Shown: piece after piece, positions 13,609 to 39,515 of the stretch
Layout: each line of letters opens with the position of its first letter
How positions within the stretch are numbered: position 1 is the first letter of the stretch
Translations under genes and position numbers: made by a program
Notes under the pieces: generated by a model
What the model was told of the DNA's origin: nothing
Database searches by the model: none
The model's input: only the letters and a program-made list of their open reading frames with translations
Origin: Bacteroidia bacterium
Lineage (GTDB): Bacteria > Bacteroidota > Bacteroidia > NS11-12g > UBA955
Assembly: GCA_044224315.1 (NCBI GenBank)
Contig: JBGAKR010000002.1
Location: 464,464 to 528,463, forward strand
DNA length: 64,000 nucleotides
Direction: 5' to 3'

Positions 13609-13632
13609 TCCGCCACACCATAGGTGGGCGGA
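13609..13632. repeat. REP-like hairpin TCCGCC-N12-GGCGGA
   Basis: TCCGCCACACCATAGGTGGGCGGA. Confidence 0.65.
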
Positions 13633-13670
13633 CACAATTCACAATTCACAATTCACAATTAATTGGCTGT

Positions 13671-16667: not shown

Positions 16668-16800
16668 TGTATGCGAATATACCCATTAGACACTGGAAAT
16701 CATGGATTGGTTGTATACACAATGTGAAATAAAAAAAAATAACCCCGGTTGCCCGGGGTTCACCAAATATCAAAATTATAGGATGCGGAAAATCCGCAGC

Positions 16801-17730: not shown

Positions 17731-17742
17731 CCTCTTTCCGGC

Positions 17743-17919
17743 TTACCACCTGCTTGCTCCGGTTGTTACCATGGCATCTACACGCTGTTTAATCAGCGCC
17801 AGTGTCATTCTGTACTGCGGATTGTTGCGAAGCCAATCTTCCATGCTGCGCAATTCCTCAGTGCTCATAAGGCCTGCAGCATATTTGGTAAGCAAATTTG
17901 ATTCCAATTGTTCTTTCAT
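17743..17919 (-). CDS. small ORF (58 aa) resembling a stand-alone FecR N-terminal (anti-sigma) segment
   Basis: My own translation: MKEQLESNLLTKYAAGLMSTEELRSMEDWLRNNPQYRMTLALIKQRVDAMVTTGASRW. The LL-KY--G-(L/M)S-EE----E-WL pattern is typical of FecR N-termini. It ends 12 nt before the FecR start. Confidence 0.3.
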   Translation of the reverse strand: MKEQLESNLLTKYAAGLMSTEELRSMEDWLRNNPQYRMTLALIKQRVDAMVTTGASRW

Positions 17920-18000
17920 ACGCGTATTAAGTCATAGATGTGTACAACGGATTTGGAGCTTACCCCCAAAAAAAATTGAAAAAAAAGTAAAAATTTTTAT

Positions 18001-19053: not shown

Positions 19054-19059
19054 TACTTT

Positions 19060-20820: not shown

Positions 20821-20864
20821 CGCATTTTGATTATTGCCCCGCTTTTCAAACCTTTGCAGCAGAA

Positions 20865-21839
20865 ATGAGCAGCGAAACTATATTGGTAATTGGCGCATGC
20901 GGCCAGTTGGGTACCGAGTTGGTAGAAGCCCTGAGGGGAATTTATGGCGATCAGAATGTAATTGCATCCGACATTAAACAAGGCGATAACCCGGTTTTCG
21001 AAGCCGGACCGTTCGAAATACTGGACATTCTGGATAAAAACAAACTCCAGGACCTCCTTACCAAATACAAACCCTCCCAGGTATACCATTTAGCTGCCCT
21101 GCTGAGTGCCACTGCCGAAAAAATGCCCGAGTTTGCCTGGAAACTAAACATGGATGGCCTTTTTCATCTGCTGGATGCCGCCCGTGATATGGGCATTGTA
21201 AAAAAAGTGTACTGGCCCAGTTCTATTGCGGCTTTTGGCCCAAATACGCCCCGCATCAATACCCCCCAATTTGGCGCCATGGACCCTACTACCGTGTATG
21301 GAATCAGTAAACTGGCGGGTGAACTCTATGCCCAGTACTATTTCAACCGCTGGGGCGTGGATACCCGCAGCCTGCGTTACCCCGGCCTGATTGGATACAA
21401 ATCGGCACCCGGCGGCGGTACTACCGATTATGCGGTGTCCATCTACCACGATGCTCTTACCACCGGCCACCACAATTGCTTTCTAAATCCCGGCACTGTA
21501 TTGCCCATGCTGTATATGCCCGATGCCCTCAAAGCTACCCTGGACATTATGCATGCACCGGCCGAAAAAATTAAAATCCGCAGCAGCTACAACCTGGCCG
21601 GAATGAGCTTTGGCCCCGAAGAAATTACCGCTGCCATCCAAAAATACATCCCCAACTTTAGCAGCAGCTACAATGCCGACTACCGCCAGGCCATCGCCGA
21701 CTCTTGGCCCGCCGTGATCGACGACAGCCGTGCCCGCGAAGACTGGGGTTGGAAACCCGATTTCGACCTGGACAAAATGACCGTGGATATGCTGGAGAAT
21801 CTCCGCAAACAGTATCCAGGTGCGAGGTACGAGGTGTGA
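20865..21839 (+). CDS. tdh: NAD-dependent epimerase/dehydratase-fold protein, probably SDR-type L-threonine 3-dehydrogenase
   Basis: The N-terminus ILVIGACGQLGTELVEALRGIYGDQNVIASDI and the YGISK catalytic Tyr-x3-Lys match the extended-SDR TDH group known from flavobacteria. Confidence 0.6.
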   Translation: MSSETILVIGACGQLGTELVEALRGIYGDQNVIASDIKQGDNPVFEAGPFEILDILDKNKLQDLLTKYKPSQVYHLAALLSATAEKMPEFAWKLNMDGLFHLLDAARDMGIVKKVYWPSSIAAFGPNTPRINTPQFGAMDPTTVYGISKLAGELYAQYYFNRWGVDTRSLRYPGLIGYKSAPGGGTTDYAVSIYHDALTTGHHNCFLNPGTVLPMLYMPDALKATLDIMHAPAEKIKIRSSYNLAGMSFGPEEITAAIQKYIPNFSSSYNADYRQAIADSWPAVIDDSRAREDWGWKPDFDLDKMTVDMLENLRKQYPGARYEV

Positions 21840-21860
21840 AGTTAGAGGTGTTGTATCCGT

Positions 21861-22187
21861 TTAGCTCTGACGCAGGCACCAGCTATTGCCGTCCAAATCT
21901 TTAAACCAGGCAAATTTGCCCCAGGGGGTTTGGTCGATTTTGCCTACCTCAATGCCTTTGGCTTTTAGCGATTCCACTTCGGCTTCGATATTTTCGGTTT
22001 GGCAAATAATGCCCTGAAAACTGGCCAAAGAAATGGTGCTTCCCCCTCCTGGTAAAGCCATCTGTATCCAAGTCTCCCCATGCGGATCGGGCGCTTCGAT
22101 TACTACTTCAAAACCCAGTTGCTGATAAAAAGCCTTGGCCTTCTGCCGGTCTTTTACCGGAATCATAATTATTTCGAGGGATTTCAT
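21861..22187 (-). CDS. VOC/glyoxalase-bleomycin-resistance family protein
   Basis: 108 aa with a beta-alpha-beta-beta-beta pattern: PVKDRQKAKAFYQQLGFEV ... FKDLDGNSW. Confidence 0.7.
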   Translation of the reverse strand: MKSLEIIMIPVKDRQKAKAFYQQLGFEVVIEAPDPHGETWIQMALPGGGSTISLASFQGIICQTENIEAEVESLKAKGIEVGKIDQTPWGKFAWFKDLDGNSWCLRQS

Positions 22188-22292
22188 TTTTTATTTTAAC
22201 AAAAGTACCCTGTTTTAATCTCATTATATTGCCCCAATAGCGGCAAAATGTGGGGGTAGATGCGACAGGGGGTTAAACATTTGAGAATTCTG

Positions 22293-22322
22293 TCCATGAG
22301 TCCCATTCTGGAGACTCATGGA
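22293..22322 (-). terminator. 10-bp-stem hairpin 12 nt downstream of the 140-aa gene; conserved in the second copy
   Basis: TCCATGAGTC-N10-GACTCATGGA. No T-run follows, so its terminator function is tentative. Confidence 0.35.
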
Positions 22323-22333
22323 TGGAGGTACTT

Positions 22334-22756
22334 TTAATTTATGGCTTTCTTCATCTCAAAGGTTCCTTTCGTTCCAGGAAAAATAACCCAACGATTTTTC
22401 ACTTTTCCGATACCCCATTTAAATTTCCAGGTACCCTTAATTGTGTTGTCGGAAATTTTTCCGGAGTAATAAATATTTCGATGTGGCTTATCCTCCTCTA
22501 TATTGCTTCCATCCTGCAAATAAACCGATTGTGTGGGCATTGCTTTTACAAATTTAATAATTCCATTTTTTACATGGCCCTCTATTTTGCCTGTACCTTT
22601 CATACCACCCGTTTCGATATCGTCTTTTACCAATCCCGAAAATCGTATACAATCAAATTCGATAATTTCAATATCAAATTTCACTTCATTATTCCGAACT
22701 TTTTCCGGAAGCCTTTGGCTTAAATACTTATAGGTTCCAGTCCATTTTCCGAGCAT
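22334..22756 (-). CDS. hypothetical 140-aa protein (paralogue A)
   Basis: Complete ORF, about 85% identical (about 21 differences in 140 by my alignment) to the product of 26943-27365. Predicted beta-rich, with no recognised family. Confidence 0.55.
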   Translation of the reverse strand: MLGKWTGTYKYLSQRLPEKVRNNEVKFDIEIIEFDCIRFSGLVKDDIETGGMKGTGKIEGHVKNGIIKFVKAMPTQSVYLQDGSNIEEDKPHRNIYYSGKISDNTIKGTWKFKWGIGKVKNRWVIFPGTKGTFEMKKAIN

Positions 22757-23132
22757 AGGTTTGGGTGGTTAAATGGTTTGCAGATTTGAGTTTGGGCGGA
22801 TATCGGAGCACAAAGCTCCAAGTTTACACGTCAGCCCGCCTGACGCAAAACCCGTGTTAGCTGCTGCTGTTCTGTTTGTGCGAAGTTGTGTAATGTCAAG
22901 TTTGCACTCACTTTGTCCGAAGCGATTTACTTTAAAAGCTGTGTCTGTCCGTGTTTGCACAGTGCGTTTGGGTTTTTATTTTTTTTTTGAAGCGTGGGAA
23001 GAAATTTTATAATGATTTTTACTTGGGCTTGAGAAAAAAAACTATCTTGTTAGCTTTGGTTTCAGTGTTGGCTTGTAGCAGCTTGCAAGAGTGTATTTTT
23101 TGTGCGTTGGCTTTTTCATCTCCACTGTGATT

Positions 23133-26100
23133 TTATTTTATAAAATACTTTACATAGAGTTCAGCAAGTTCAGCATCAAAATTTTCTTTCAATGCCTTTT
23201 CAAATTCTTTTTTCAATGCAGGAATTTTTGCAAATCTTTTGTAGAAAACTTCTCTTCCGTCAACTATGTCAAGCCATTCTATTTTGAAGTTTGCGTAATC
23301 AAACTTCTCTGGATTCAAATAGAATTTCATGTAGTCAGCAAGATTTGTAAATGCTTTAAGACGCCTATCGTCACTTTTCACATTCATGTTGTAAATGAAA
23401 ATCATGGCACTTATAAAAACGAAACTTTGTTTCTTAGGTCTGCCCGAACTAAGTGTGTATGCTCCATTACCTTTTTTAATGTTTATCTCTGAAATGTATT
23501 GTTCAAAGTATTGATTGTAGTCAATTATATTTTCTAATGACGCCTTTATATATAAATCAGCATTGTACTTTTCATCAAGAATTTCAATAATTCTACTTTT
23601 CAACTCCTCTCTCATGCTATCATCCGAAATTTCCCATAAGAAAATTAAAGTATCTGTCTTTCTGTCAGAGTTTTTGATAAGAGATTGAACAGCCAAAATC
23701 AATTTTCTGTCCTCGATTCTTTCAAAATTATTTTTCTTAAAGATGTAAGATATTGTTTCTAACAAATCACTGTCAATATATAAATCTAACTTTACAAGAA
23801 CTATTTTCAAAAGACCTTCTAAATTTTCCTTTGTAAACAGTTGAACGTTTTTATGCATGAAAGCACAAAGGAAATCTATTTCTTTCCTGCGCAAGAAGGT
23901 TTCATGTTGCAAGAAGTCAAGGAGATTTTGAATTAGGTCAGGTGTTTTTTCATTTGTCAGCTTCATTCCTGACAGCAGAAGGAAAATATTGTTGAACTTT
24001 TTACGACAATTATTTTCAAAAAAGTAGCTGCTGATTTGATTTCTAGTAAGCTTGTCTGCATTTGTGCTTCTGCCAAAGAATGTATTTTCTTCAAAAAATG
24101 ATTTGAGAAAGTTATTTACTGATTCAAGAATATCAGGAAAACTCGCTTCGTTGAATTCAATTTTATTGATATCATATTTTTGAGTTATTTTTCTTACTTC
24201 TTCTGCATCACCATAGAATACAACTATGTCGAAGAATTTTTTACTGAACTCTTTAATTCTCTCCCCATAACTTTCATTTGTCGCATAATTTATCAAGAGT
24301 GCTTCAATTCCCTTTTTGATAACTCTCGTAAGATTGACAAACTCATCAGCAACGATGTAATTGTTCGTGTAAAAGGTGATGACTTTGAAAATTTCTGTTT
24401 CAATTTGCTGCGGGTAATAAGGACCCATTGACCAAATTCTTCCTGTCTTGTAGCCATCATAAATGTCCGAAACCTTGCGGTGAAGTTCATTTATTTCCTT
24501 TTCAGCCTTGTGTAAAACATCATCATCACGAATCATTTTCAGAAGTTCATACTCGTTTTCGCCCAAGTATGGAATCTGAGAAATCAATTTGTCAAAGTCT
24601 ATGTCGTCCATTTCCTGAACAATCCTTTTCCTTTCTTCATCCTTCAAAGTGCTTTCGTGAAAACTTATCAGGTTGCGTAAAGTTTTGATGTTGTGTTTTG
24701 CGATATAATAGGAAAAATATTTTCCTGCTTGCCACGCTTTGTTTGCGACTTCTTCAAACAAGCGATATGACTGATGGAAGTTTCCTATTTTATGATTTGC
24801 ATAAGCAAGTTCAAGGTCTGATTGAATACTTGTTGTTGCGTTAATTGTAGAGTTTAATGTGTCTGCAATGACACTACTTAATTCAAAACGATTCAAGCGG
24901 CAGTTAAAGCAGTTGCATTTTGCAGCTGGCTTTATAAACAGCTTTTTGTATGTATCTGACCATCCATGATTGCCGAAAGAATCGGGCTTTTCATTTTCTT
25001 TAAACAAGTAGAATATCATACTGAAGTTTAAAGACCTGATTATCTCTTTCAACTTTCTCTCAATCTCTTTTATTTCCGAATCTGTCAAAGTCATTTCTGG
25101 CTTCGGCTTGAACCTTACTTCATCATCAACATATTCAATCTGATTAAAAAATAAGTCAACAAGCAAATCATTTCTTGTTAGCAGCGAATTTGATTCGTAA
25201 TTGTGAACATAACTCTTCGAATTATTGAAAGGATAAAGATTAGCAATGAAATCAGGTGGCAGAGTTTGGAATTCTGAAAAGCGATTTAGAGACAGATAGA
25301 TTTGGTCAATGATATTCTTATCAGTTAATGGCTCATTGAACTTATTGTACGTAGAAAGGAATACTAAAAAGTTTAAAAGGTATTGTCCTTTTTCAGAAAG
25401 ATTTTCCCCTTTTTTGAAAAGCATTTCATGCAAAGCATTTTTTCCATTCAGGTAGTCGGTAATGTAATTTACTTCATAAACAACCTCTGTATCAAAATAG
25501 TTGATGACATTTATTCCTTTGTTCTTTAAATATTCTCTCTGTGTCGGATGTAAGTTTTTTTCAACTGAAAGCAAGTAGGCATTTTGAAAATCTTTACCTA
25601 AAATATTTCTCACTGTCTGCACTATCATTTTCAGATTGATGTCAGAAAAACCATAGCCAACAAACAGAACAACCTTTGAAGCAAAAACAGATTTTAGAAA
25701 TGCTTCAATCAAAGGATGATTCAAACTGTAATCAAGGTAATCATCTTCCTTTAAAACGATGTCAGTGTCGTTCAAGTCGCCATGAACTTTGACAAGTAAA
25801 TTTGTATTGAGTGCATAAGGAAATTCTTTGTCTTTAGAAACAACAGAAAAGGGGAGAGATTCCTTTTTGATTACCTGCTCAAGCAAATCATCATAGTTTG
25901 TTGTCAGGATGTGTTCAGGATTCAATTTGAAAATCCACTCATGAATTTCATTGTATCTAACTTTCTTATGTTTTAGAACTGCACGGATTTTATCAATGTA
26001 TTCCTTCTGCTGCCTTTCGTTGTAATACATCTGAGCAATTCGCAAATAGTCGGCTTCATTTGGCGATATTGAGATTTCAGATTTCATTTCATCAATCAAT

Positions 26101-26219
26101 GTTCCCCAAGTTGGAATACCCGCATCTACGGAAATTCCTGCACCAGCAAATACAACTAACTTGTTTGTGTCAATTGCATTGCGAATGTTTTTTATGTCGG
26201 TGAAAAATTTCTTGCTCAT
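23133..26219 (-). CDS. SIR2-domain (SIR2_2/defence-type NADase) protein with a large uncharacterised helical C-terminal region; DSR-like single-gene defence candidate
   Basis: 1,028 aa. Motifs in order: FAGAGIS (aa 24-30), TTNYD (aa 106-110), KVHGD (aa 144-148) and FVGYGFSD (aa 186-193). No P-loop, TIR, nuclease or TM motif is visible in aa 230-1028. Markedly AT-rich. Confidence 0.8.
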   Translation of the reverse strand: MSKKFFTDIKNIRNAIDTNKLVVFAGAGISVDAGIPTWGTLIDEMKSEISISPNEADYLRIAQMYYNERQQKEYIDKIRAVLKHKKVRYNEIHEWIFKLNPEHILTTNYDDLLEQVIKKESLPFSVVSKDKEFPYALNTNLLVKVHGDLNDTDIVLKEDDYLDYSLNHPLIEAFLKSVFASKVVLFVGYGFSDINLKMIVQTVRNILGKDFQNAYLLSVEKNLHPTQREYLKNKGINVINYFDTEVVYEVNYITDYLNGKNALHEMLFKKGENLSEKGQYLLNFLVFLSTYNKFNEPLTDKNIIDQIYLSLNRFSEFQTLPPDFIANLYPFNNSKSYVHNYESNSLLTRNDLLVDLFFNQIEYVDDEVRFKPKPEMTLTDSEIKEIERKLKEIIRSLNFSMIFYLFKENEKPDSFGNHGWSDTYKKLFIKPAAKCNCFNCRLNRFELSSVIADTLNSTINATTSIQSDLELAYANHKIGNFHQSYRLFEEVANKAWQAGKYFSYYIAKHNIKTLRNLISFHESTLKDEERKRIVQEMDDIDFDKLISQIPYLGENEYELLKMIRDDDVLHKAEKEINELHRKVSDIYDGYKTGRIWSMGPYYPQQIETEIFKVITFYTNNYIVADEFVNLTRVIKKGIEALLINYATNESYGERIKEFSKKFFDIVVFYGDAEEVRKITQKYDINKIEFNEASFPDILESVNNFLKSFFEENTFFGRSTNADKLTRNQISSYFFENNCRKKFNNIFLLLSGMKLTNEKTPDLIQNLLDFLQHETFLRRKEIDFLCAFMHKNVQLFTKENLEGLLKIVLVKLDLYIDSDLLETISYIFKKNNFERIEDRKLILAVQSLIKNSDRKTDTLIFLWEISDDSMREELKSRIIEILDEKYNADLYIKASLENIIDYNQYFEQYISEINIKKGNGAYTLSSGRPKKQSFVFISAMIFIYNMNVKSDDRRLKAFTNLADYMKFYLNPEKFDYANFKIEWLDIVDGREVFYKRFAKIPALKKEFEKALKENFDAELAELYVKYFIK

Positions 26220-26901
26220 TTAGTTTCTTTTTTGTCAATTAATAGATTCATATATAATATTTGTCAAACTGCACTTAGCGTTGCAGCCTACTCTATAATT
26301 GTCCCCTCTTTATACCGGGTAGCTAATCAAATTTGGAGCATATGCTAAACTGACTGGCTTATCATTTTCAAATATATAAAAAAATCCAGTCCAAAACAAA
26401 ATACTCGATTCCAATATTGAAAGCTCCTCTTATTCCATCCTAAATTGTAACGATATGTGAAATGTTAACCGATATTTAAAACCATCAGTTTAGATGATCA
26501 GACACCCCCCTCTCCAATTTTTCTACAACCCCACTTCTACCCCAGAGCCATTAATATGTAGTCACAGTTCTACAACCCTAAAATTTTGAAAGCCTGCCGA
26601 AATATGCACAGCGTAGAAACTTTGGGCAGAATAGGCTAACCCCAAAAGCACAAATCCCAGCAGCAGCGGCCGGTTTGCTAAGCGATACGACAGATTTAAC
26701 TACCATTTATCTATACTTGCTTTATACTTGCTCTTAAATGGCTCTTAGATTGCTCCTAGATGGCTCCGAAACTGCACTAACAGGGGGTCAGTTGCACTGT
26801 TTTATTTTGTAGAAGATTTCTACACGTACCCCTAGGAGGAAATTGGGACAGCATGGTTTTGTAGTAATACTGAAAAAGGGATTGTCTGTTGCTTTCGTAT
26901 G

Positions 26902-26931
26902 TCCATGAGTCCCATTCTGGAGACTCATGGA
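26902..26931 (-). terminator. second copy of the 10-bp-stem hairpin
   Basis: Identical TCCATGAGTC-N10-GACTCATGGA, 12 nt downstream of the stop of paralogue B. Confidence 0.35.
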
Positions 26932-26942
26932 CGGAGGTACTT

Positions 26943-27365
26943 TTAGGTTATGGCTTTCGACATCTCCCAGGTTCCTTTCAATCCAGGAAAAATAACCCAG
27001 CGATTTTTCACTTTTCCGATACCAAATTTAAATTTCCAGGTACCCTTAATTGTGTTGTCGGAGATAATTCCGGAGTAATAAATTTTGCGGTGTGGCTTAT
27101 CCTCCTCAATATGTCGTCCATCCTGCATAAAAACAGATCGCGTAGGCATTGCTTTTACAAATTGCACAATCCCATTTTTTACATGGCCCTCTATTCTGCC
27201 TGTAGCCTCCATACCACCCGTTTCAATGTCGTCTTTTACAAATCCCGTAAATCGTATTCCATCAAATTCGATAATTTCAATATCAAATTTCACTTCACTA
27301 TTCCGAACTTTTTCAGGTAGCCTTTGGCTTAAATACTTATAGGTCCCTGTCCATTTTCCAAGCAT
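26943..27365 (-). CDS. hypothetical 140-aa protein (paralogue B)
   Basis: Complete ORF, paralogue of 22334-22756. Confidence 0.55.
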   Translation of the reverse strand: MLGKWTGTYKYLSQRLPEKVRNSEVKFDIEIIEFDGIRFTGFVKDDIETGGMEATGRIEGHVKNGIVQFVKAMPTRSVFMQDGRHIEEDKPHRKIYYSGIISDNTIKGTWKFKFGIGKVKNRWVIFPGLKGTWEMSKAIT

Positions 27366-27513
27366 TGGTTCGGATTGTTTAATGGTTTGGAGCTAAATGA
27401 AGGGCGGGACTTTTACTCCATTAAAGGATTTAAAAACCATGCATGGGGGATTATTAACCACAAAAGAGACTTTGGAGTAATAACCTCGCCAATTTTAAAT
27501 CTGATGTTATGCT

Positions 27514-28512
27514 TCAGTTTGTTAAAAATATTGTAATTTCTTCTAAATAAAATAGCCAGTCATAATTTAAGGCATAGACTAATTTAAATTTCCTTCTTAA
27601 GTCATAATCTGCTCCAACTAAATAAACAGGTCGATTTATTTTGTTTAGTGAATTGGTTGATACGAATATTCCCTCATTCGGTATTTGTCCTAAATGCAAT
27701 CCCTTCTTTTGAGAATTTCGGACATTCCCATTTGTAATTACGCGAATAGCTTTTGAGTCATTCCCTATTGTTAAGAATTCATCGGAATAATTTCTTTTCA
27801 AATAGTATCCTAAATTTTTTGGAAGGTATGGGTTGTTATTAGCCAAGTGTCCACAATGACCAAATATTATATATTTTATAGCTTTTTCAGTCGAGATATT
27901 TTCTTGAATGAATTCAAACATTAAGGAATCCCTAATTTTGTCCCCATATTTTCTCCGAAACTTAAGGTAGGTTAAATCATAGTGCAATTGATTAATGCTC
28001 GTTTGAAAGATGGGTTCTTTAGTTGTTGCTTTTAACAAATATAGTTGTTGCAATATACTGTCATATTGATTTTGTTCCAAAGAATACCAATAGAAAGCTT
28101 CATTAGAATCTAATTTGCTCAAGATACCCGAAATATTCTGTAATAGTTGAGGGTTGTAATTAGCAAGTTGTTTTTTTACCATTTGAAATGACGCATAGAG
28201 GCTACCTGGATTATAGCCTATTAATTTAATAGTAGAATCGAATAAGTTTATTTCATTTGCAATTTTGTTTTTTTTCAAATACAAATTATTAGATTCAAAA
28301 AATATAGTACCGATTGTATAATATTTCTGCAATTCCTTAACAAACGACAATTGAGCTTTTGCTAGTTGATCAGACCCATGTACACATTCACAAAAACAGA
28401 TTATTCTTGAACTATCGATGTTTTTCACCAAAGATGCCGGAAACTTAGGGGATTGACATCTACCAGATACAAAGAATATTTGAAATACAAGCATTACCAC
28501 TATCTTTCTCAT
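27514..28512 (-). CDS. hypothetical secreted protein; weak resemblance to the Tiki/erythromycin-esterase/ChaN superfamily
   Basis: 332 aa with a signal peptide, AT-rich. CECVHGS near the N-terminus and IIFGHCGHLANN near the middle loosely recall the GE-x-HG and H-x-x-H segments of erythromycin-esterase-like proteins. Very tentative. Confidence 0.45.
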   Translation of the reverse strand: MRKIVVMLVFQIFFVSGRCQSPKFPASLVKNIDSSRIICFCECVHGSDQLAKAQLSFVKELQKYYTIGTIFFESNNLYLKKNKIANEINLFDSTIKLIGYNPGSLYASFQMVKKQLANYNPQLLQNISGILSKLDSNEAFYWYSLEQNQYDSILQQLYLLKATTKEPIFQTSINQLHYDLTYLKFRRKYGDKIRDSLMFEFIQENISTEKAIKYIIFGHCGHLANNNPYLPKNLGYYLKRNYSDEFLTIGNDSKAIRVITNGNVRNSQKKGLHLGQIPNEGIFVSTNSLNKINRPVYLVGADYDLRRKFKLVYALNYDWLFYLEEITIFLTN

Positions 28513-28693
28513 GTCAGTATATAAAGTGTATTATTTTGGGGATTTTCACTGATTGCTTGTAACTCTTTTATTACCACTACAATATAGGCATGACACCCTA
28601 GTTTTGGGTTGACATGCACGATTCAGTGGCGTATTATTTTCAAATATAGAAAAATTATGCATTCAACCCCATTATCCTATTTACTTAACTAAA

Positions 28694-29675
28694 AATCGAG
28701 GTTCGCTATCACGAAATCTAGGTTCGCAACCCCAAAATCGAGGTTCATTACCCCGAAATCCTGGTTCAGAACCCCGAAATCTAGGTTCCCTACCCCGAAA
28801 TCTAGGTTCGGAGCCTCGAAATCCAGGTTCCCTACCCCGAAATCTAGGTTCACAACCTCAAAATCCAGGTTCAGAACCCCAAAATCTAGGTTCGCTACCC
28901 CGAAATCCCGGTTCGCTACCTCGAAATCTAGGTTCCCTACCCCAAAATCTAGGTCCCCTACCTCAAAATCTAGGTTCGCTACCTCAAAATCCTAGTTCGG
29001 AACCTCGAAATCCAGGTTCTCTACCTCAAAATCCAGGTTCTCTACCTCAAAATCTAGGTTCGCTACCTCGAAATCCTGGTTCGGAACCTCAAAATCTAGG
29101 TTCTCTACCTCGAAATCTAGGTTCGCTACCCCAAAATCCAGGTTCCCGACCTCGAAATCGAGGTTCGCTACCTCGAAATCCAGGTTCTCTACCTCGAAAT
29201 CGAGGTTCGCTACGTCGAAATCTAGGTTCACAACCCCGAAATCGAGGTTCGCAACCTCGAAATCTAGGTTCCCTACCTCGAAATCGAGGTTCCCTACCTC
29301 GAAATCCAGGTTCCCTACCTCGAAATCCAGGTTCACAACCTCGAAATCCAGGTTCACAACCTCAAAATCCAGGTTAGCTACCCCGAAATCTAGGTCCGGA
29401 ACCTCGAAATTCAGGTTCCCTACCCCGAAATCCAGGTTCGCTACCTCGAAATCCAGTCCGCCGCATTTCCAATGGGCGGACGCTACCTCGAAATCCAGGT
29501 TCCCTACCCCGAAATCCAGGTTCATAACCTCAAAATCTAGGTTCGCTACCTAGAAATCTACGTCCGGAACCTCAAAATCTAGGTCCGGAACCCCGAAATC
29601 CAGGTTCGCTACCTCGAAATCTAGGTTCGTTACCTCGAAATCTAGGTTCGCTACCTCAAAATCTAGGTTCACAAC
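28694..29675. repeat. 21-bp tandem satellite, about 46 units (consensus CGAAATCYAGGTTCSCTACCY)
   Basis: A regular 21-nt period is visible throughout, with variable positions. One unit (29456-29481) is interrupted by a REP-like hairpin. The only open frame is a partial 177-aa NLDFEV(A/G) artefact on the minus strand. Confidence 0.9.
29456..29481. repeat. REP-like hairpin GTCCGCC-N12-GGCGGAC inserted in the satellite
   Basis: GTCCGCCGCATTTCCAATGGGCGGAC replaces the GTT of a satellite unit. Confidence 0.75.
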
Positions 29676-29682
29676 CTCAAAC

Positions 29683-29866
29683 GAGGTTAGAGTTATGAGG
29701 TACGAGGTTAGAGTTAGCTGTGTCGCGGGCTAGGAAATCCAGTCCGCCGTATTTCCAATGGGTGGACGGAAGCCCAATCAAGGTTAGAGGTAAGAGGTAC
29801 GAAGTTAGAGTTAGCTGTCGCGGTCAAGGAAATCCAGTCCGCTGCATTTCCAACGGGCGGACGGAA
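29683..29866. repeat. two direct copies of a 90-95 bp module (heptamer run GAGGTTA/GAGTTAT/GAGGTAC... plus a REP-like hairpin)
   Basis: Copy 1 is 29683-29771 and copy 2 is 29780-29866. Each ends in GGAAATCCAGTCCGCYGYATTTCCAAYGGGYGGACGGAA, with hairpins at 29742-29767 and 29837-29862. Confidence 0.8.
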
Positions 29867-30114
29867 CCTCATGCGAGTTACGAGTTTAGGGTTACGGGTT
29901 TAGGGTTTAGGGTTACGACTTGACCGACTGCTTCTGTAGGGGAGGTAAGAGTGCATAGTCGCAGCAAAGAAATCCACCTCCTACACAATTTATAAAGCAG
30001 ACGGACAATAATTCAACTAATCAAACCAATTAACAATCAACGAATCCTCTATTCGACCAATATACCAATCAACTAATCAACAAATCCATCCAATCCACTA
30101 ACTTTACACCCCCA

Positions 30115-31617
30115 ATGCGCTTCATCATTTGCATACTGCTTAGCCTGGCTGCCACAGCCGTCAAAGGGCAAACCAGCCTTGGCGGTTTTATTAAATACAG
30201 CCTCCGTCCGGAAGGGGAAACCACTTTTAAAAACAGCCCACAATGGGTGCTGGAGTACAGTTGTTTTAACCAGAAATCGGTATTTCAAACCCTGGGAAAC
30301 GGACTAAACGGCGGAGGCGTTATTCAACAGGCATTGCCAGCCGGATTTGAGCTGCACGGCATTACCCTGCACATCTATGCCGATAGCTTGCACCACAGCA
30401 TTAAACTCAACGAAAATACGCTGGATGCTGGCCCCTGTGAGGGTTGGAACCTGGGTGGCTTCCATAAGAAAACCCTTTTGGAAGGCGGACGACTGCAACA
30501 ATTTACAGCCGATGTACGCTTACAGATCAAAGCGGTAAAATCGCAAGCAGAATACAACTTGCAGCGCCGGGGCGGATTGTTTAGCAGACCCAACGACATT
30601 TTTTGCATACCTGGCTCAACCCCGCAAGACCCTGAATTTGTATTGGAAGCACCCTGCCCCTTGCGTTTTATGAATGACGCCAGCTCATTGAAATGGTATG
30701 AAAGCGCCGACGGAAAAAACTGGCAATTTGTGGATACGGGTTATGAAATGAGTCCGGTGAAATACAGTTACAAGGGTGGTGTTTTTTACAACCAAAAACG
30801 CTGGTACAAGGTGGTGGCCGACAATGCCGTAAATGGCCAAAAAGATTTTGCTTCGAATGTGTACGGTCCGGTAAATTTTTATCTGGGCATGCAAATCGAC
30901 AGCATCCAAACCCGGGGGCAAAATGATGTGCAGGTATACTTTCAAAACAGTACGTTTTTGCAAAACAATTACGGCCCCCGCATCTGGATCAGGCCCTTGC
31001 TTTCTGAAGGGAATGCCATTGTATGGTATCGCATGGCCAATGCCGGACCCTCGCCCGTATCGCTGAACAACCGCGTGTGGGTGCTGGAAAACGGAGAACA
31101 AACTTCCCTGGTTTTAAATAAGGGAATGTACGAATTGCGCATTGATTTTACACCCTGGAATAATTTAGACTGTAAGCTGCAATACAGCGTATTTACCCTG
31201 GAAAATGATTTAATTCAAACTGAGCAAATATTGGTAAGTGAACAATTAAAAACTGCTTTAAAATTTAAATTAAAAGAATTGGAATCCGCAAGGCCCGTGC
31301 TCATCGGTGGCGATTCTGTTTCAACCATTAAAACCAAAAAATCGCGTCATAAAAATATATTAATTCAGCAATTTACCGCCCAACCCAATCCCAACGACGG
31401 ACAGAATTATACCATCGTAGTAAAACTCAGCAAACCCGCCCCCATCCGCATTTACAAAATCGACCCCGTAACCGGCATTGTGTTGGGAATGCAGGAATAT
31501 GCGCAGGAAAAAGAATTTTATTTAAATACATTCCGCACCGATAAAGAAGGGGTATTTTATTTGAAATTGGTGGCTGAGAATGAGAGTTCGGTGATTAAGG
31601 TAATTGCAGTGAACTGA
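30115..31617 (+). CDS. secreted protein with a T9SS type-A C-terminal sorting domain; paralogue of the 720-aa protein at 43932-46094
   Basis: Signal peptide. The core segment PCPLRFMNDASSLKWYESADGKNWQFVDTGYE...YNQKRWYKV...GPVNFYLGMQIDSI...NNYGPRIW aligns with the 720-aa protein. The C-terminus QPNPNDGQNYTIVVKL...IYKIDPVTG...GVFYLKLV...IKVIAVN is Por_Secre_tail-like. Confidence 0.7.
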   Translation: MRFIICILLSLAATAVKGQTSLGGFIKYSLRPEGETTFKNSPQWVLEYSCFNQKSVFQTLGNGLNGGGVIQQALPAGFELHGITLHIYADSLHHSIKLNENTLDAGPCEGWNLGGFHKKTLLEGGRLQQFTADVRLQIKAVKSQAEYNLQRRGGLFSRPNDIFCIPGSTPQDPEFVLEAPCPLRFMNDASSLKWYESADGKNWQFVDTGYEMSPVKYSYKGGVFYNQKRWYKVVADNAVNGQKDFASNVYGPVNFYLGMQIDSIQTRGQNDVQVYFQNSTFLQNNYGPRIWIRPLLSEGNAIVWYRMANAGPSPVSLNNRVWVLENGEQTSLVLNKGMYELRIDFTPWNNLDCKLQYSVFTLENDLIQTEQILVSEQLKTALKFKLKELESARPVLIGGDSVSTIKTKKSRHKNILIQQFTAQPNPNDGQNYTIVVKLSKPAPIRIYKIDPVTGIVLGMQEYAQEKEFYLNTFRTDKEGVFYLKLVAENESSVIKVIAVN

Positions 31618-31700
31618 CAGCCGAAGAACAGCCGAAAGACAGCCGACGGGCAGCCGATATCGGATTTCGGATCTTGGATCTTGGATTTCGGGAACAGCCT

Positions 31701-31743
31701 TTTCAAACTTTTCCAAAGTTTTCACCTTTGGAAAAGTTTGAAA
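31701..31743. terminator. perfect 17-18 bp stem hairpin between convergent genes (bidirectional terminator candidate)
   Basis: TTCAAACTTTTCCAAAG-TTTTCAC-CTTTGGAAAAGTTTGAA, between the 3' ends of 30115-31617 (+) and 31858-32310 (-). Confidence 0.6.
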
Positions 31744-31857
31744 TATCGTAAAGCGCCGATTTCGGATATCGGATTTTGGATATCTGATATCTGATATCTG
31801 ATATCCGTTATCCGGCATCTGCTATCTGCTATCTGATATCTGCCCTCCGAAACCAAA

Positions 31858-32310
31858 CTAGTTGCAATGACGCATGGCGAAGAGGAAGATCCGAATTACT
31901 AATATTACAACGAGAATGATGGTCCAGGTTGGGATTTTGGCATTGTTGGCTGAATTGGGGTTGGGATACGGCGCCAGGGGTATTACCGGGGGTGCCGCTA
32001 CAGGTTCTGGTTCCGGGGTTATTTCGGGTTCAGGAGCATGGTCTTTAGGATCATAGCGAAAACGGTTCTCAAAATCATCGTCTTCACTTTGTTGCTGCGC
32101 GCCATGCAGGAGACCATGGTCTTCAAATATTTTGCGGGCGGTATCATAATCGCGCTTAAAAACTTTAATGCTAATTTCCTTGTTCATGCCCGGAATATTG
32201 GTATTATTCTGCTCTGTAACAGAGTGAATTCCGGCCTCTTCCAACAGGCTAGAGGCAAAAGATGCATCATGCGAAAAATTAAAAGTAATAGCAGTTACAA
32301 GTGGTTCCAT
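31858..32310 (-). CDS. DUF2007-like (putative signal-transducing) domain protein with a Pro-rich linker and C-terminal TM anchor
   Basis: 150 aa. The N-terminal approx. 70 aa are beta-alpha-beta-like (ASSLLEEAGIHS...KIFEDHGL). A PEPE/PP linker and a hydrophobic tail WTIILVVILVIRIFLF follow. Confidence 0.5.
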   Translation of the reverse strand: MEPLVTAITFNFSHDASFASSLLEEAGIHSVTEQNNTNIPGMNKEISIKVFKRDYDTARKIFEDHGLLHGAQQQSEDDDFENRFRYDPKDHAPEPEITPEPEPVAAPPVIPLAPYPNPNSANNAKIPTWTIILVVILVIRIFLFAMRHCN

Positions 32311-32409
32311 TTATACAAATCTAACGAAATAAACTTTCGCATTCATCGGATTTTGAAATCGATTATATCCGGATACTCTAAAATAAAAATTCTGAATTAT
32401 CTTCGCCCA

Positions 32410-32895
32410 ATGGCCCTGCAAAAAACCACACGCTACCTGCTCATTGCACTGGTGATTGTCACCAACATTGGTTGCGACCAGATATCCAAAACCATGGTGC
32501 GCAAAAAAATTGAGTATGGGCAGGAAATACCGGTAATAGACCAGCACATTACCCTTACCCGGGTTGAAAATAAGGGGGCTTTTTTGAGTCTGGGTTCCGA
32601 ATTGCCCGGCGCTTTTCACACCTTTGCCATGCTCATTTTGCCCTTACTCATACTGGGTGCAGGTACCGTTTTTGTTTTTACCCGCAAAAACATTTCAGGC
32701 TTATTTGTAACCGGTGCAGCCTTTTTATTGGGAGGCGGAATCGGCAATCTATACGACCGTTTTGCCTTTGGCAGTGTTACCGATTTTCTGCATCTGCAAG
32801 CCGGCGGACTCCAAACCGGCGTCTTCAATATGGCCGACGTCTCCATCATGATAGGCACCGGCCTGGTGTTAATCTCCTCCTTCCGCCGCCCCTAA
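32410..32895 (+). CDS. lspA: lipoprotein signal peptidase (signal peptidase II)
   Basis: Segments DQISK, NKGAFLSLG, GGGIGNLYDR, VTDFL and FNMADVSI. The ATG at 32410 is chosen because the track ORF from 32038 is an antisense-overlapping extension. Confidence 0.8.
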   Translation: MALQKTTRYLLIALVIVTNIGCDQISKTMVRKKIEYGQEIPVIDQHITLTRVENKGAFLSLGSELPGAFHTFAMLILPLLILGAGTVFVFTRKNISGLFVTGAAFLLGGGIGNLYDRFAFGSVTDFLHLQAGGLQTGVFNMADVSIMIGTGLVLISSFRRP

Positions 32896-33071
32896 CCCCA
32901 GCAGCCATGCATACCCCAAACCCCTCCACGACCATGGCTGTTGCTATTCCCCATTCCCCGCCTCAAAAGCAGTCGGGCAAGCCTATACCCTATTCCTCCG
33001 CAACCACTTGTCGGTGCCTGAAATATGTTGACCGTTTTTAAGGACAAAACCAACTTTAAAAACAAAAACAT

Positions 33072-33485
33072 ATGGCAACCCGAGAACAATTTGAATTAAG
33101 CTCTGCAGAACGCAGAAAAAGGATTTTCAGTACAGACTTTAAACGAAAAAAAGTCAGGGAGATTGAACTAAAACAAACGACGGTATTAGAGGTCAGCAAG
33201 GCCTATCAGGTGCGCCAAGCTAATGTGTACCGTTGGCTTGAGAAGTATGGTAAATCTTATAAAAAAAGCGTACGTTTGATAGTAGAAATGGAAAGCGACA
33301 CCAAACAACTGCTGGACCTGAAGGCTAAAATTGCAGAACTGGAGAGGATTGTGGGACAAAAACAATTGACCATTGACTTCCAGGCCAAAATGATTGATTT
33401 AGCCGAGGAGGTTTATGGTGTGGATATAAAAAAAAAATTCGAGAGCAAACCACCATCTATTTCTGGCAACACAGAGAACAGCTAA
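33072..33485 (+). CDS. IS3-family transposase OrfA (HTH/leucine-zipper part)
   Basis: 137 aa with HTH segments (EVSKAYQVRQANVYRWL) and a coiled-coil LLDLKAKIAELERIV. Confidence 0.8.
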   Translation: MATREQFELSSAERRKRIFSTDFKRKKVREIELKQTTVLEVSKAYQVRQANVYRWLEKYGKSYKKSVRLIVEMESDTKQLLDLKAKIAELERIVGQKQLTIDFQAKMIDLAEEVYGVDIKKKFESKPPSISGNTENS

Positions 33486-33544
33486 AATGTAGCCTGAACA
33501 CATTTTACAAAGCAATTTCAACAAGCAAACAGGCACTACATCAA

Positions 33545-34291
33545 TTGCTTAACCGACGTTTAAAAATGGAGGAAGAAAACACCTATCTCATTGACATCGT
33601 AAGGCAGATTCGCAAAGATCACGCAACAATGAACAGCCGGGCCATGTATTACAAAATTAAACCACAAAGTATTGGACGAGATAAGTTTGAGGCACTTTGC
33701 AGAGACTGGGGCTTTTTAACTTCAAAGCCGGTCAATTATCGCAGAACAACTTATAGCAACGGCGTTATACGATTCGATAATTTGCTGGCTAGCGCAAAAC
33801 TCAGTAGTATTAACCAGGCCTTTGTAAGCGATATCACGTATTATGAATTAATCCGGTTTTATTACATCACATTTATTCTGGACGCATATTCCAGGTATAT
33901 AGTCGGCTATAGTGTATCAGACCGCCTTACCACAGAAAGCACCACATTGCCAGCGCTGCAAATGGCTATCAAGTATAGAAAAACACTACCAGAAAACATC
34001 ATCTTTCACTCAGATGGTGGAGGTCAATACTATGACAAGGATTTCCTTGCCCTGACTGAGAAATACAAGTTCAGAAATAGCATGTGCGAGTATCCGCAAG
34101 ACAATGGAGTTGCAGAAAGAATCAACGGCGTTATCAAAAACAATTACTTAAAACATTGGAAAACTACCTCTTATGCGCAACTAGTGAAAAATGTTGACCG
34201 GGCAGTGACCCTTTACAACAATGAAAAACCACACAAATTTCTCAAATATAGAACCCCTTTGGAGATTGAAATTGAACAATTACATTTGTAA
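33545..34291 (+). CDS. IS3-family transposase OrfB (rve/DDE integrase core); probably made as an OrfAB fusion by -1 frameshifting
   Basis: DDE triad context: FVSDITYY, FHSDGGGQY and NGVAERINGVIK. I checked that the -1 frame is open from the A-run (33434) to 33545. Confidence 0.8.
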   Translation: MLNRRLKMEEENTYLIDIVRQIRKDHATMNSRAMYYKIKPQSIGRDKFEALCRDWGFLTSKPVNYRRTTYSNGVIRFDNLLASAKLSSINQAFVSDITYYELIRFYYITFILDAYSRYIVGYSVSDRLTTESTTLPALQMAIKYRKTLPENIIFHSDGGGQYYDKDFLALTEKYKFRNSMCEYPQDNGVAERINGVIKNNYLKHWKTTSYAQLVKNVDRAVTLYNNEKPHKFLKYRTPLEIEIEQLHL

Positions 34292-34496
34292 GGCAAACAA
34301 AGCCGAGGATGACAGAGTCATTTGACGCAAAATTCAATTAAAAGGGGCATTTAGCCCCATTTAATTGAGCAAACAAAGCCTCCGAATCAAGATGTATTCT
34401 CTGCAAAAGTCTACAAGGAGACGAGAGGCAAAACGGTCAACGTTATTCAGGCATCAACAACTATTCCCCATTCCCTATACCCCATTCCCCAAAAAA

Positions 34497-35327: not shown

Positions 35328-35329
35328 GT

Positions 35330-35821: not shown

Positions 35822-35855
35822 GGCCCAAATTTCTCAAATTTGCAGCGCATAACCA

Positions 35856-39507: not shown

Positions 39508-39515
39508 CATACTTT

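What the first reader, a model, noticed from the sequence alone, without database searches (positions are those of the whole stretch)
23133..26219. Stand-alone 1,028-aa SIR2-domain protein in an AT-rich islet: candidate single-gene NAD+-depleting anti-phage system with an unassignable C-terminal sensor region
**SIR2 module.** The first approx. 200 aa carry, in canonical order, the hallmarks of the defence-type SIR2 (SIR2_2) fold. These are FAGAGIS (aa 24-30, NAD-binding loop), TTNYD (aa 106-110, conserved Asn/Asp), KVHGD (aa 144-148, catalytic His) and FVGYGFSD (aa 186-193).

**C-terminal region.** The remaining approx. 800 aa look helical and TPR/HEAT-like. They show no P-loop, TIR, nuclease, APAZ/Argonaute or TM signature that I can see.

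**Context.** No ThsB/TIR, HerA or pAgo gene is adjacent, so Thoeris, SIR2-HerA and SPARSA layouts do not fit. The nearest described architecture is the single-gene DSR1/DSR2 class, in which a large C-terminal domain senses a phage protein and unleashes NADase activity.

**Composition.** The gene is much more AT-rich than its housekeeping neighbours. By rough hand counts of sample 60-nt lines, it is about 25-35% GC versus about 50-60% in the tdh gene. It also sits between 490-bp direct repeats, the hallmark of a variable or acquired locus.
Basis: partly seen in the sequence, partly recalled or inferred. Interest (0 to 1): 0.85.

Follow-up and report, generated by a model that had tools for sequence, protein, structure and literature searches.

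The report
Divergent DSR2-type anti-phage sirtuin gene
The 1,028-aa gene is a real, intact, distant relative (about 18% identity) of the known single-protein phage-defence enzyme DSR2, sitting in a variable island of a freshwater Bacteroidota genome, so it is a new member of a known system and not a new kind.

Summary
ORF 23133-26219 (minus strand, 1,028 aa) carries a SIR2_2 domain (Pfam E=1.1e-24) with all four motifs at the stated residues. Its GC is 32.8%, against 40.9% for the window and 52.3% for the tdh/epimerase gene. It lies between two 490-bp direct repeats that are 89% identical.

A profile of 25 homologues matches Bacillus subtilis DSR2 in two co-linear stretches: SIR2 (E=7.8e-53) and aa 454-1025 against DSR2 419-1003 (E=2.2e-11). 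An AlphaFold model (pLDDT 83) superposes on full-length DSR2 cryo-EM chains (Foldseek E=2.6e-24, TM 0.6-0.7). The DSR2 catalytic residues S51/N133/D135/H171 align to S30/N108/D110/H146.

Close homologues (85-86% identity) sit in unrelated contexts with integrases, restriction-modification genes and OLD nucleases. No partner gene is conserved across 41 loci. The gene is under purifying selection (dN/dS about 0.11), and the C-terminal domain evolves fastest.

The flanking repeats are two paralogous copies of a 140-aa beta-barrel gene, not attachment sites. The whole segment 21840-34364 is missing from the closest related genomes.

Verdict: a DSR2-family NADase abortive-infection gene whose phage trigger is unknown. 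It is a new member of a known kind, of modest interest.

The parts
23133..26219 (-). DSR2-family defence-associated sirtuin gene, 1,028 aa. This is the whole system (single gene).
   Evidence: ORF and translation. Full-length homologues of 1,022-1,031 aa. Profile match to B. subtilis DSR2, E=7.7e-65, in two co-linear stretches. Foldseek full-length match to DSR2 chains, E=2.6e-24. dN/dS 0.11-0.12.
25401..26219 (-). N-terminal SIR2 (NADase effector) domain, about aa 1-273. The codons of the residues aligned to the DSR2 catalytic Asn and His are N108 at 25896-25898 and H146 at 25782-25784.
   Evidence: Pfam SIR2_2, E=1.1e-24. phmmer against DSR2: aa 9-273 aligns to DSR2 30-299, E=3e-39. The alignment is ungapped across N108=N133, D110=D135 and H146=H171, and S30=S51. 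The roles of these DSR2 residues are from PMC11087589, PMC11850899 and bioRxiv 10.1101/2021.12.14.472415.
24522..25400 (-). Middle domain (linker plus helical bundle), about aa 274-566. It includes the invariant CxCxxC motif at aa 435-440 (24900-24917).
   Evidence: Boundaries were transferred from DSR2 (MID 299-547, PMC11850899) through the alignments. The aa 255-470 part has no sequence-detectable PDB relative, but it lies within the roughly 1,100-column full-length Foldseek alignments to DSR2, whose per-residue correspondence was not printed. C435, C437 and C440 are invariant in 25 of 25 sequences.
23133..24521 (-). C-terminal HEAT-like alpha-solenoid domain, about aa 567-1028: the predicted phage-protein sensor.
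   Evidence: The profile stretch 454-1025 aligns to DSR2 419-1003, E=2.2e-11. DSR2 chains lacking SIR2 (8ygo, 8ygk) are hit at E=5.5e-12. Foldseek matches to such chains: E=2.6e-11 to 6.6e-10, TMt 0.59-0.69. The model's pLDDT is mostly above 85 here. This domain has the fastest non-synonymous rate: dN 0.10-0.11 against 0.039 in SIR2.
22291..22780 (-). Left direct repeat: copy A of a 140-aa orphan beta-barrel gene (ORF 22334..22756) plus its downstream hairpin. This is context, not part of the defence system.
   Evidence: The family has only 10 clusters in the database. The AF2 model (pLDDT 90) is an all-beta barrel with only weak calycin/avidin-like matches. The gene is absent next to close DSR2-like homologues.
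26900..27390 (-). Right direct repeat: copy B of the same 140-aa gene (ORF 26943..27365). This is context.
   Evidence: It is 85% aa identical to copy A.
21840..34364 (.). Variable island holding the DSR2-like gene, with an IS3-type transposase pair (33072-34291) at its right edge.
   Evidence: In tblastx, the closest relatives L006, L009 and L012 run straight from the epimerase gene into the block that is window 40914->34491, inverted. Nothing in them matches 21840-34400. Transposase domains HTH_Tnp_1 and rve.

Best explanation
The gene encodes a DSR2-family defence-associated sirtuin. This is a single-protein abortive-infection system.

By homology with B. subtilis DSR2, the protein is expected to form an auto-inhibited tetramer held together by its N-terminal SIR2 domains. 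Its C-terminal HEAT-like solenoid would capture a phage protein made late in infection; in the characterised case this is the tail-tube protein. That binding would open the SIR2 active site (N108/H146), NAD+ would be hydrolysed to depletion, and the infected cell would stop supporting phage growth.

Shown here:
- the full-length homology and the shared fold;
- conservation of the catalytic residues;
- stand-alone genomic behaviour in defence and mobile contexts;
- purifying selection, with a faster-evolving C-terminal domain;
- absence of the locus from related genomes.

Inferred, not shown: tetramerisation, NADase activity, abortive infection, and the identity of the trigger. The trigger cannot be transferred from Bacillus, because the trigger-binding regions are not conserved between DSR2 proteins.
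For: - **SIR2 domain.** Pfam SIR2_2, E=1.1e-24.
- **Closest solved structures.** The best PDB sequence hits are B. subtilis DSR2 entries at E=3e-39, ahead of ThsA at 1.8e-23.
- **Full-length homology.** The family profile matches DSR2 at E=7.7e-65 in two co-linear stretches, 6-263 (7.8e-53) and 454-1025 (2.2e-11). DSR2 fragments without SIR2 are hit on their own at 5.5e-12.
- **Shared fold.** The AF2 model has pLDDT 83.2 and pTM 0.75. The top 44 Foldseek PDB hits are all full-length DSR2 chains, with E=2.6e-24 to 4.3e-17, TM 0.57-0.72 and about 1,100 aligned columns.
- **Catalytic residues.** S30, N108, D110 and H146 align to DSR2 S51, N133, D135 and H171. N133A and H171A abolish DSR2 activity (PMC11087589; bioRxiv 10.1101/2021.12.14.472415).
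- **The gene moves alone.** Nucleotide similarity to the 85-86% homologues covers only the ORF plus 26 nt, and their contexts are unrelated to each other and to the window.
- **No conserved partner.** Across 41 loci no neighbour family is found in more than 6. The commonest neighbours are tyrosine integrases (6), Eco57I-type restriction-modification enzymes (4) and OLD nucleases (3).
- **Selection.** dN/dS is 0.11-0.12 overall, 0.16-0.17 in the C-terminal domain and 0.06-0.08 in SIR2.
- **Modular sensor.** The same C-terminal module is found fused to other N-terminal domains (MmeI_N/HSDR_N, SMEK_N, DUF4365), as expected for a sensor.
- **Variable locus.** The island is absent from the closest related genomes.
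Against: - Overall identity to the only characterised DSR2 is about 18%.
- The linker part of the middle domain (aa 255-470) shows no sequence similarity to DSR2.
- The PADLOC Dsr2 model (PDLC02184) matches neither this protein nor any of 24 family members, even at E<=1. It does hit the SIR2 part of some more distant relatives from Bacillota (Firmicutes) and from other Bacteroidota.
- The model is least confident exactly around the active site (aa 108-168, pLDDT below 50).
- No activity, trigger or phage is known for any Bacteroidota member; I found no paper on one.
Confidence: 0.8

Rival explanations
1. It has the DSR2 fold but a different output. The SIR2 domain would act as an ADP-ribosyltransferase or deacylase on a specific target, or lower NAD+ only transiently without killing the cell, as reported for DSR1.
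For: SIR2 domains support several chemistries. DSR1 showed transient NAD+ depletion without culture collapse (bioRxiv 10.1101/2021.12.14.472415, read). Weak NCBIfam hits to NAD-dependent deacylases cover aa 8-116.
Against: The deacylase hits score 17-31 bits against cut-offs of 221-318. The closest SIR2 domains by far are the NADases DSR2 and ThsA. In DSR2 the acetyl-lysine channel is blocked and the zinc insertion of the Sir2 domain is missing (PMC10981675).
Confidence: 0.08
2. It is one component of a multi-gene system together with the flanking 140-aa gene copies and/or the AT-rich 332-aa gene at 27514-28512.
For: Both AT-rich genes are followed by a copy of the 140-aa gene on the same strand. 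A 41-nt element (78% identical) lies 100-160 nt upstream of both AT-rich genes.
Against: Homologues 85-86% identical have neither neighbour, and nucleotide similarity stops at the ORF edges. No neighbour is conserved across 41 loci. Homologues of the 140-aa gene occur without any SIR2 gene nearby. None of these proteins hits a PADLOC model. The 332-aa protein has an N-terminal hydrophobic stretch that looks like a signal peptide (read from the translation, not run through a predictor) and a weak erythromycin-esterase match.
Confidence: 0.03
3. It is a non-defence or housekeeping protein, or a silent relic in this genome.
For: No experimental data exist. No convincing promoter could be called: sigma-70-type hits are not above shuffled controls.
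Against: The reading frame is intact and the same length as its homologues. All catalytic and family-invariant residues are kept. dN/dS is 0.11. Distribution is patchy, next to integrases and restriction-modification genes. The locus is absent from the closest relatives. The promoter scan does not cover Bacteroidota promoters.
Confidence: 0.05

Closest known systems
DSR2 (defence-associated sirtuin 2) of Bacillus subtilis 29R, 1,005 aa (PDB 8k98, 8wkt, 8wy8 and others)
   Same: - A single polypeptide of about 1,000 aa.
- The same order of SIR2, middle domain and HEAT-like C-terminal domain.
- Co-linear profile match over both halves and a full-length structural match.
- The same catalytic Ser/Asn/Asp/His.
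- A stand-alone gene in variable loci.
   Different: - About 18% identity overall.
- The linker subdomain is not alignable by sequence.
- The family carries an invariant CxCxxC at aa 435-440. I could not check this motif in DSR2, and the two DSR2 structure papers I searched for 'zinc' mention it only for the missing Sir2 zinc insertion.
- The host is a Bacteroidota member, so the phages differ. The trigger is unknown, because DSR2 trigger-binding regions are not conserved between species (PMC11087589).
- It is missed by the PADLOC Dsr2 model.
ThsA (Thoeris SIR2-SLOG NADase)
   Same: The SIR2 domain is closely related: PADLOC ThsA models hit at E=4.6e-38 over aa 9-222, and PDB ThsA at 1.8e-23. 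In DSR2, the SIR2 domains form the same tetramer core as in ThsA (PMC11087589).
   Different: There is no SLOG domain, since the match stops at position 227 of the 478-position model. No ThsB/TIR gene is nearby. Activation would be by protein binding, not by a cyclic ADP-ribose isomer signal.
DSR1
   Same: A single large protein with an N-terminal SIR2 domain. It is a defence protein that lowers NAD+.
   Different: Only the SIR2 part matches: NCBIfam Dsr1 scores 27 bits against a cut-off of 1,400, and PADLOC Dsr1 covers aa 11-250 only. The C-terminal region is unrelated.
SIR2-HerA, SPARSA (SIR2-APAZ/pAgo) and Avs5 (SIR2-STAND)
   Same: All use a SIR2 NADase effector.
   Different: No HerA or Argonaute gene is adjacent. 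No APAZ or NTPase domain was detected within the protein or in its neighbours.

Membership tests
DSR2 | Single polypeptide of about 1,000 aa with an N-terminal SIR2 domain | tested here: met
   1,028 aa. SIR2_2 E=1.1e-24. aa 9-273 aligns to DSR2 30-299, E=3e-39.
DSR2 | Catalytic Asn and His (DSR2 N133, H171), plus S51 and D135 in the NAD+ pocket | tested here: met
   N108, H146, S30 and D110 align to them in an alignment that is ungapped at these points. S30, N108 and H146 are invariant in 25 homologues; D110 is not on the invariant or near-invariant lists, and some homologues have Glu at that position in the tblastn seed pattern. Residue roles from PMC11087589 and PMC11850899.
DSR2 | Middle domain plus HEAT-like C-terminal domain homologous to that of B. 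subtilis DSR2 | tested here: met
   Profile 454-1025 against DSR2 419-1003, E=2.2e-11. Chains 8ygo and 8ygk, which lack SIR2, are hit at E=5.5e-12. Foldseek full length E=2.6e-24, TM 0.6-0.7; chains lacking SIR2 about 1e-10. Caveat: the linker aa 255-470 is not detectable by sequence.
DSR2 | Acts alone, with no conserved partner gene | tested here: met
   41 loci clustered; the most frequent neighbour family occurs in 6 of 41 and is an integrase. Close homologues share only the ORF.
DSR2 | Recognised by an operational DSR2 model (PADLOC PDLC02184) | tested here: not met
   Neither the window protein nor any of 24 relatives hits it at E<=1. The model is in the library, but it matches only the SIR2 part of some more distant relatives from Bacillota (Firmicutes) and from other Bacteroidota. 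This is a classifier, not a biological feature, so I weigh it below the direct comparison with the characterised protein.
DSR2 | Auto-inhibited tetramer; NADase switched on by a phage tail-tube protein; NAD+ depletion and abortive infection | not testable with these tools
   Needs biochemistry and phage assays.
DSR1 | Full-length match to the Dsr1 model, including its C-terminal region | tested here: not met
   NCBIfam NF041818 scores 27 bits against a cut-off of 1,400, over aa 19-241 only.
Thoeris ThsA | SLOG/STALD signal-binding domain and an adjacent ThsB (TIR) gene | tested here: not met
   The ThsA models match only their SIR2 part. No TIR or SLOG hit in the protein or its neighbours.
SIR2-HerA / SPARSA / Avs5 | Adjacent HerA ATPase, adjacent pAgo with APAZ, or an internal STAND NTPase | tested here: not met
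   Pfam and PADLOC scans of the protein and the flanking ORFs show none.

The most novel reading that the evidence does not exclude
This may be the founding example of a deep Bacteroidota clade of DSR2. It keeps the DSR2 scaffold but would sense a different phage protein than the siphovirus tail tube. It would also carry a metal-binding CxCxxC site in the middle domain that takes part in signal transmission. The clade is invisible to the PADLOC Dsr2 model. Its C-terminal sensor module is shared with proteins carrying nuclease-type, SMEK or DUF4365 N-termini, which points to a wider family of sensors with swappable effectors.
Probability: 0.3. Interest if true: 0.45.

Novelty: new member of a known kind. 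Interest (0 to 1): 0.3.

Why it matters
It extends the experimentally characterised DSR2 mechanism to uncultured freshwater Bacteroidota. It also shows that at least one widely used defence-annotation library misses this clade, so SIR2-based immunity is probably under-counted in that phylum. The family gives a set of natural sensor variants: the C-terminal domain evolves fastest, and the same sensor module is fused to other effectors. These could be used to study how DSR2-type solenoids change trigger specificity. It does not reveal a new principle of immunity.

Tried and rejected
- **PADLOC Dsr2 model.** Neither the protein nor any of 24 family members hits it. A control showed that the model exists and matches only the SIR2 part of more distant relatives.
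- **Middle linker.** A separate profile of aa 255-470 found no DSR2 or other meaningful PDB match. I could therefore not check whether B. subtilis DSR2 has the CxCxxC motif.
- **Conserved partner genes.** The 268-aa gene downstream in Elizabethkingia, the DUF2971 gene in L003 and the 268-aa gene next to a 140-aa-gene homologue are unrelated to one another. Clustering of the neighbours of 41 loci found none conserved.
- **The 140-aa repeat gene as a defence or mobile-element component.** It has no Pfam, PADLOC or NCBIfam hit. The family is tiny. The predicted fold is a small beta-barrel with only weak calycin/avidin-like matches. Rejected.
- **Strain-level presence or absence.** Exact-protein look-ups for both 140-aa copies found nothing. 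Two short-read contigs identical to the window stop at or just before the left repeat, at window 22320 and 22255. They are uninformative about polymorphism.
- **Promoter and terminator scan.** Sigma-70-type hits are not above shuffled controls, and the tool does not model Bacteroidota promoters.
- **RNA genes.** The Rfam and tRNA scans show no RNA gene in or beside the locus.
- **Phage carriage.** Only two weak partial hits in 2.9 million viral contigs.
- **Literature.** The search for DSR2 in Bacteroidota or Flavobacterium returned nothing relevant.
- **Failed look-up.** P0064 is not on record.
Full report
**1. The observation**

The ORF reported at 23133-26219 is on the minus strand, starts with ATG and encodes 1,028 aa. 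Their core residues are invariant in an alignment of 25 homologues that go down to 36% identity. Pfam gives SIR2_2 at E=1.1e-24 (87.6 bits against a cut-off of 24.5) over aa 103-239, a sub-threshold canonical SIR2 hit over aa 26-112, and nothing else along the protein.

The gene's GC content is 32.8%. The window mean is 40.9% and the epimerase/tdh gene at 20865-21839 is 52.3%. Only the neighbouring 332-aa gene at 27514-28512 is lower, at 30.1%.

The direct repeats are real. They lie at 22291-22780 and 26900-27390, spaced 4,609 bp apart, and the 300-nt core is 89% identical.

**2. What the protein is**

A single-sequence search of all PDB chains puts B. subtilis DSR2 first (E=3e-39, aa 9-273 against DSR2 30-299). 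ThsA (1.8e-23) and the KomC SIR2 NADase follow.

A profile built from the 25 homologues matches DSR2 at E=7.7e-65 in two co-linear stretches. The first is the SIR2 domain, 6-263 (7.8e-53). The second is 454-1025 against DSR2 419-1003 (2.2e-11). The DSR2 constructs 8ygo and 8ygk, which lack the SIR2 domain, are found independently at E=5.5e-12.

An AlphaFold2 model made with that alignment has mean pLDDT 83.2 and pTM 0.75. Most of the region beyond aa 250 is above 85, while aa 108-168 is below 50. In Foldseek against the PDB, the first 44 hits are all full-length DSR2 chains, in apo, tail-tube-bound and DSAD1-bound states. They score E=2.6e-24 to 4.3e-17 and TM 0.57-0.72 over about 1,100 alignment columns at 16-19% identity. 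Chains that lack SIR2 match at about 1e-10 with target-normalised TM of 0.59-0.69.

Published DSR2 domain limits are SIR2 1-298, middle domain 299-547 and HEAT-like C-terminal domain 548-1005 (PMC11850899). Transferred through the alignments, these give about aa 1-273, 274-566 and 567-1028 here.

The DSR2 pocket residues S51, N133, D135 and H171 align to S30, N108, D110 and H146. N133A and H171A abolish DSR2 defence and NADase activity (bioRxiv 10.1101/2021.12.14.472415; PMC11087589).

So the C-terminal region is not unassignable. It is the DSR2 middle domain plus sensor domain.

**3. What it is not**

- **DSR1.** The DSR1 models match only the SIR2 part. NCBIfam Dsr1 scores 27 bits against a cut-off of 1,400, and PADLOC Dsr1 covers aa 11-250.
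- **ThsA.** The ThsA models stop at the end of their SIR2 part. There is no SLOG domain and no ThsB gene.
- **Other SIR2 systems.** No HerA or Argonaute gene is adjacent, and no APAZ or STAND NTPase domain was detected in the protein or the flanking ORFs.

One negative result needs stating. The PADLOC Dsr2 model (PDLC02184, 1,222 positions) matches neither this protein nor any of 24 family members, even at E<=1. A control shows the model is in the library. It matches some more distant relatives, from Bacillota (Firmicutes) and from other Bacteroidota, but only over their SIR2 part. I treat this as a limit of that classifier, not as evidence against homology with the characterised protein.

**4. 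Genomic behaviour**

Homologues 85-86% identical occur in metagenome contigs in two unrelated settings. In one the gene lies between helicase and Mrr-like genes and a tyrosine integrase (L001). In the other it lies between a T9SS peptidase gene and DUF2971, OLD-family nuclease and RHS genes (L003). Nucleotide similarity between these loci and the window is limited to 26245-23135, which is the ORF plus 26 nt, at 86%.

In those hosts the gene's GC (33%) equals that of the flanks (30-36%). In the window it is 8 points below the mean. This fits acquisition from a lower-GC Bacteroidota donor.

A scan of one genome per species retrieved full-length relatives across the Flavobacteriia, Cytophagia, Chitinophagia, Sphingobacteriia and Saprospiria. 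Weaker full-length relatives appeared in Clostridia, Bacilli and Selenomonadales.

I clustered all ORFs within 4 kb of the gene in 41 loci. No family is shared by more than six loci. The most frequent are tyrosine integrases (6), Eco57I/MmeI-type restriction-modification enzymes (4) and OLD nucleases (3), followed by conjugative-element genes such as DUF3871 and RadC. The gene is therefore stand-alone and travels as cargo of defence islands and integrative elements. It is rarely phage-borne: only two weak partial hits in 2.9 million viral contigs.

**5. The local island**

The left flank of the window (10970-21815: PKD/CHU_C protein, FecR, oxidoreductase, ABC transporter, epimerase) is co-linear with the closest available genomes. 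These are freshwater Bacteroidia/Flavobacteriales MAGs whose epimerase is 81-92% identical.

In L006, L009 and L012 the epimerase gene is followed directly by the block that in the window is 40914->34491, inverted. Nothing in those loci corresponds to 21840-34400. That segment holds:

- a glyoxalase gene;
- the two 140-aa gene copies;
- the DSR2-like gene;
- the 332-aa AT-rich gene;
- a 21-nt tandem-repeat array;
- a T9SS-tailed protein gene;
- a signal peptidase II gene;
- an IS3-type transposase pair (33072-34291), exactly at the junction with the inverted block.

The flanking 'repeats' are two paralogous copies (85% aa identity) of an orphan 140-aa gene. Its family has only ten clusters in 5.8 billion proteins. 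It is predicted with high confidence (pLDDT 90) to be a small all-beta barrel, with only weak calycin/avidin-like structural matches. Its homologues occur elsewhere without any SIR2 gene.

Recombination between the two copies would delete the 4.6-kb segment that carries the DSR2-like gene. I found no sequence that shows such an allele. The only same-strain contigs are short-read assemblies that stop at or just before the left repeat, at window 22320 and 22255.

**6. Selection**

Against L001 and L003, dN/dS is 0.11-0.12 over the whole gene. By region it is 0.06-0.08 in SIR2, 0.06-0.08 in the middle domain and 0.16-0.17 in the C-terminal domain. dN is 0.10-0.11 in the C-terminal domain against 0.039 in SIR2. 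The gene is therefore functional, and its putative sensor evolves two to three times faster than its effector.

**7. Mechanism and confidence**

The best-supported model is the DSR2 mechanism. An auto-inhibited SIR2-core tetramer captures a phage structural protein in the HEAT-like solenoid. This opens the NAD+ pocket, NAD+ is depleted and the infection aborts (mechanism from PMC10981675, PMC11087589 and PMC11850899).

Fold, catalytic residues, stand-alone behaviour and selection are shown here. Oligomer state, activity and trigger are inferred. [quoted passage not shown] I put 0.8 on this model.

The rivals are a different SIR2 chemistry or only transient depletion (0.08), a multi-gene system with the neighbours (0.03), and a non-defence or silent gene (0.05).

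**8. Novelty and score**

This is a new, divergent member of a known family with the same architecture. It is not a new kind of system. Three points go modestly beyond routine:

- the clade escapes the PADLOC Dsr2 model;
- it carries an invariant CxCxxC in the middle domain, which I did not see mentioned in the two DSR2 structure papers I searched for 'zinc', where the word refers only to the missing Sir2 zinc insertion;
- its C-terminal module (528 clusters at E<=1e-3 among 1.84 billion representatives) is also found behind MmeI_N/HSDR_N, SMEK_N and DUF4365 N-termini, and behind N-terminally extended SIR2 domains.

Interest: 0.3.

Noticed in passing
window 41742-52739 (minus strand): Six co-directional ORFs (187, 551, 720, 652, 1010 and 520 aa) have no Pfam, PADLOC or NCBIfam hit at all. 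Several start with hydrophobic, signal-peptide-like N-termini and one looks like an outer-membrane beta-barrel; both readings come from my own inspection of the translations, not from a predictor. The block has no counterpart in the closest relative L006, which jumps from window 34491 to 54739. It is a second variable island, probably an envelope or surface locus, of unknown function.
   Followed up: partly
proteins P0159, P0168, P0165, P0199, P0177, P0163, P0170 (relatives of window aa 454-1028): The DSR2-type C-terminal sensor module occurs behind other N-terminal domains: MmeI_N/HSDR_N nuclease-type (about 960 aa), SMEK_N or DUF4365 (about 910 aa), and SIR2 with an extra 150-240-aa N-terminal extension (about 1,180 aa). 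This looks like effector swapping on a common sensor.
   Followed up: partly
window 24900-24917 (aa 435-440 of the DSR2-like protein): A CxCxxC motif (C435, C437, C440) is invariant in all 25 aligned family members. It lies in the linker part of the middle domain and may be a metal site. I could not check whether B. subtilis DSR2 has it.
   Followed up: partly
window 33072-34291 (plus strand): An IS3-type transposase pair (HTH_Tnp_1 ORF followed by an rve ORF) sits exactly at the junction between the island and a syntenic block (34365-40922) that is inverted relative to related genomes.
   Followed up: partly
window 22334-22756 and 26943-27365 (minus strand): The duplicated 140-aa gene belongs to a very small orphan family of 10 clusters, all from related freshwater Bacteroidota. 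It is confidently predicted as a beta-barrel with weak nitrobindin/avidin-like matches. Its function is unknown.
   Followed up: partly
window 26342-26382 and 28614-28654: A 41-nt element (78% identical) lies 100-160 nt upstream of both AT-rich genes, the DSR2-like gene and the 332-aa gene. On the coding strand it contains TATATTTG, which fits the Bacteroidota -7 promoter motif TAnnTTTG (from my own knowledge). A short two-copy match like this may be chance.
   Followed up: no
window 27514-28512 (minus strand): This is the most AT-rich gene of the window (30.1% GC). It encodes a 332-aa protein with a signal-peptide-like N-terminus (judged from the translation, not a predictor) and a weak erythromycin-esterase-family match (E=6e-07). 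It is probably a second, independently acquired gene in the same island.
   Followed up: no
window 28569-29525: A long array of 21-nt tandem repeats (44 or more register-shifted copies, 60-82% identical) overlaps ORF 28992..29525. That ORF has weak matches to repetitive surface proteins.
   Followed up: no
window 29721-29812 and 29816-29907: Two adjacent 92-nt direct repeats (76% identical) lie in an intergenic region upstream of the T9SS-tailed 500-aa gene. There is no Rfam match.
   Followed up: no
L169 and L170 (Logan SRR28480385 and SRR28480381), equal to window 13624-22320 and 13624-22255: Two short-read contigs 99.9-100% identical to the window both start at 13624. One ends 30 nt inside the left 140-aa repeat, at 22320, and the other about 35 nt before it, at 22255. 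The break inside the repeat suggests the repeat is present in that sample too. The shared start at 13624 may mark another repeat.
   Followed up: partly
L114 6001-10398: A homologue 83% identical, in a Sphingobacteriales MAG, spans 4.4 kb instead of 3.1 kb. The database holds an 831-aa product for it (P0021). The gene may be interrupted by an insertion.
   Followed up: no
window 6395-6486 (plus strand): Bacteroidales-type small SRP RNA, 69.3 bits. This fits a Bacteroidota host.
   Followed up: no
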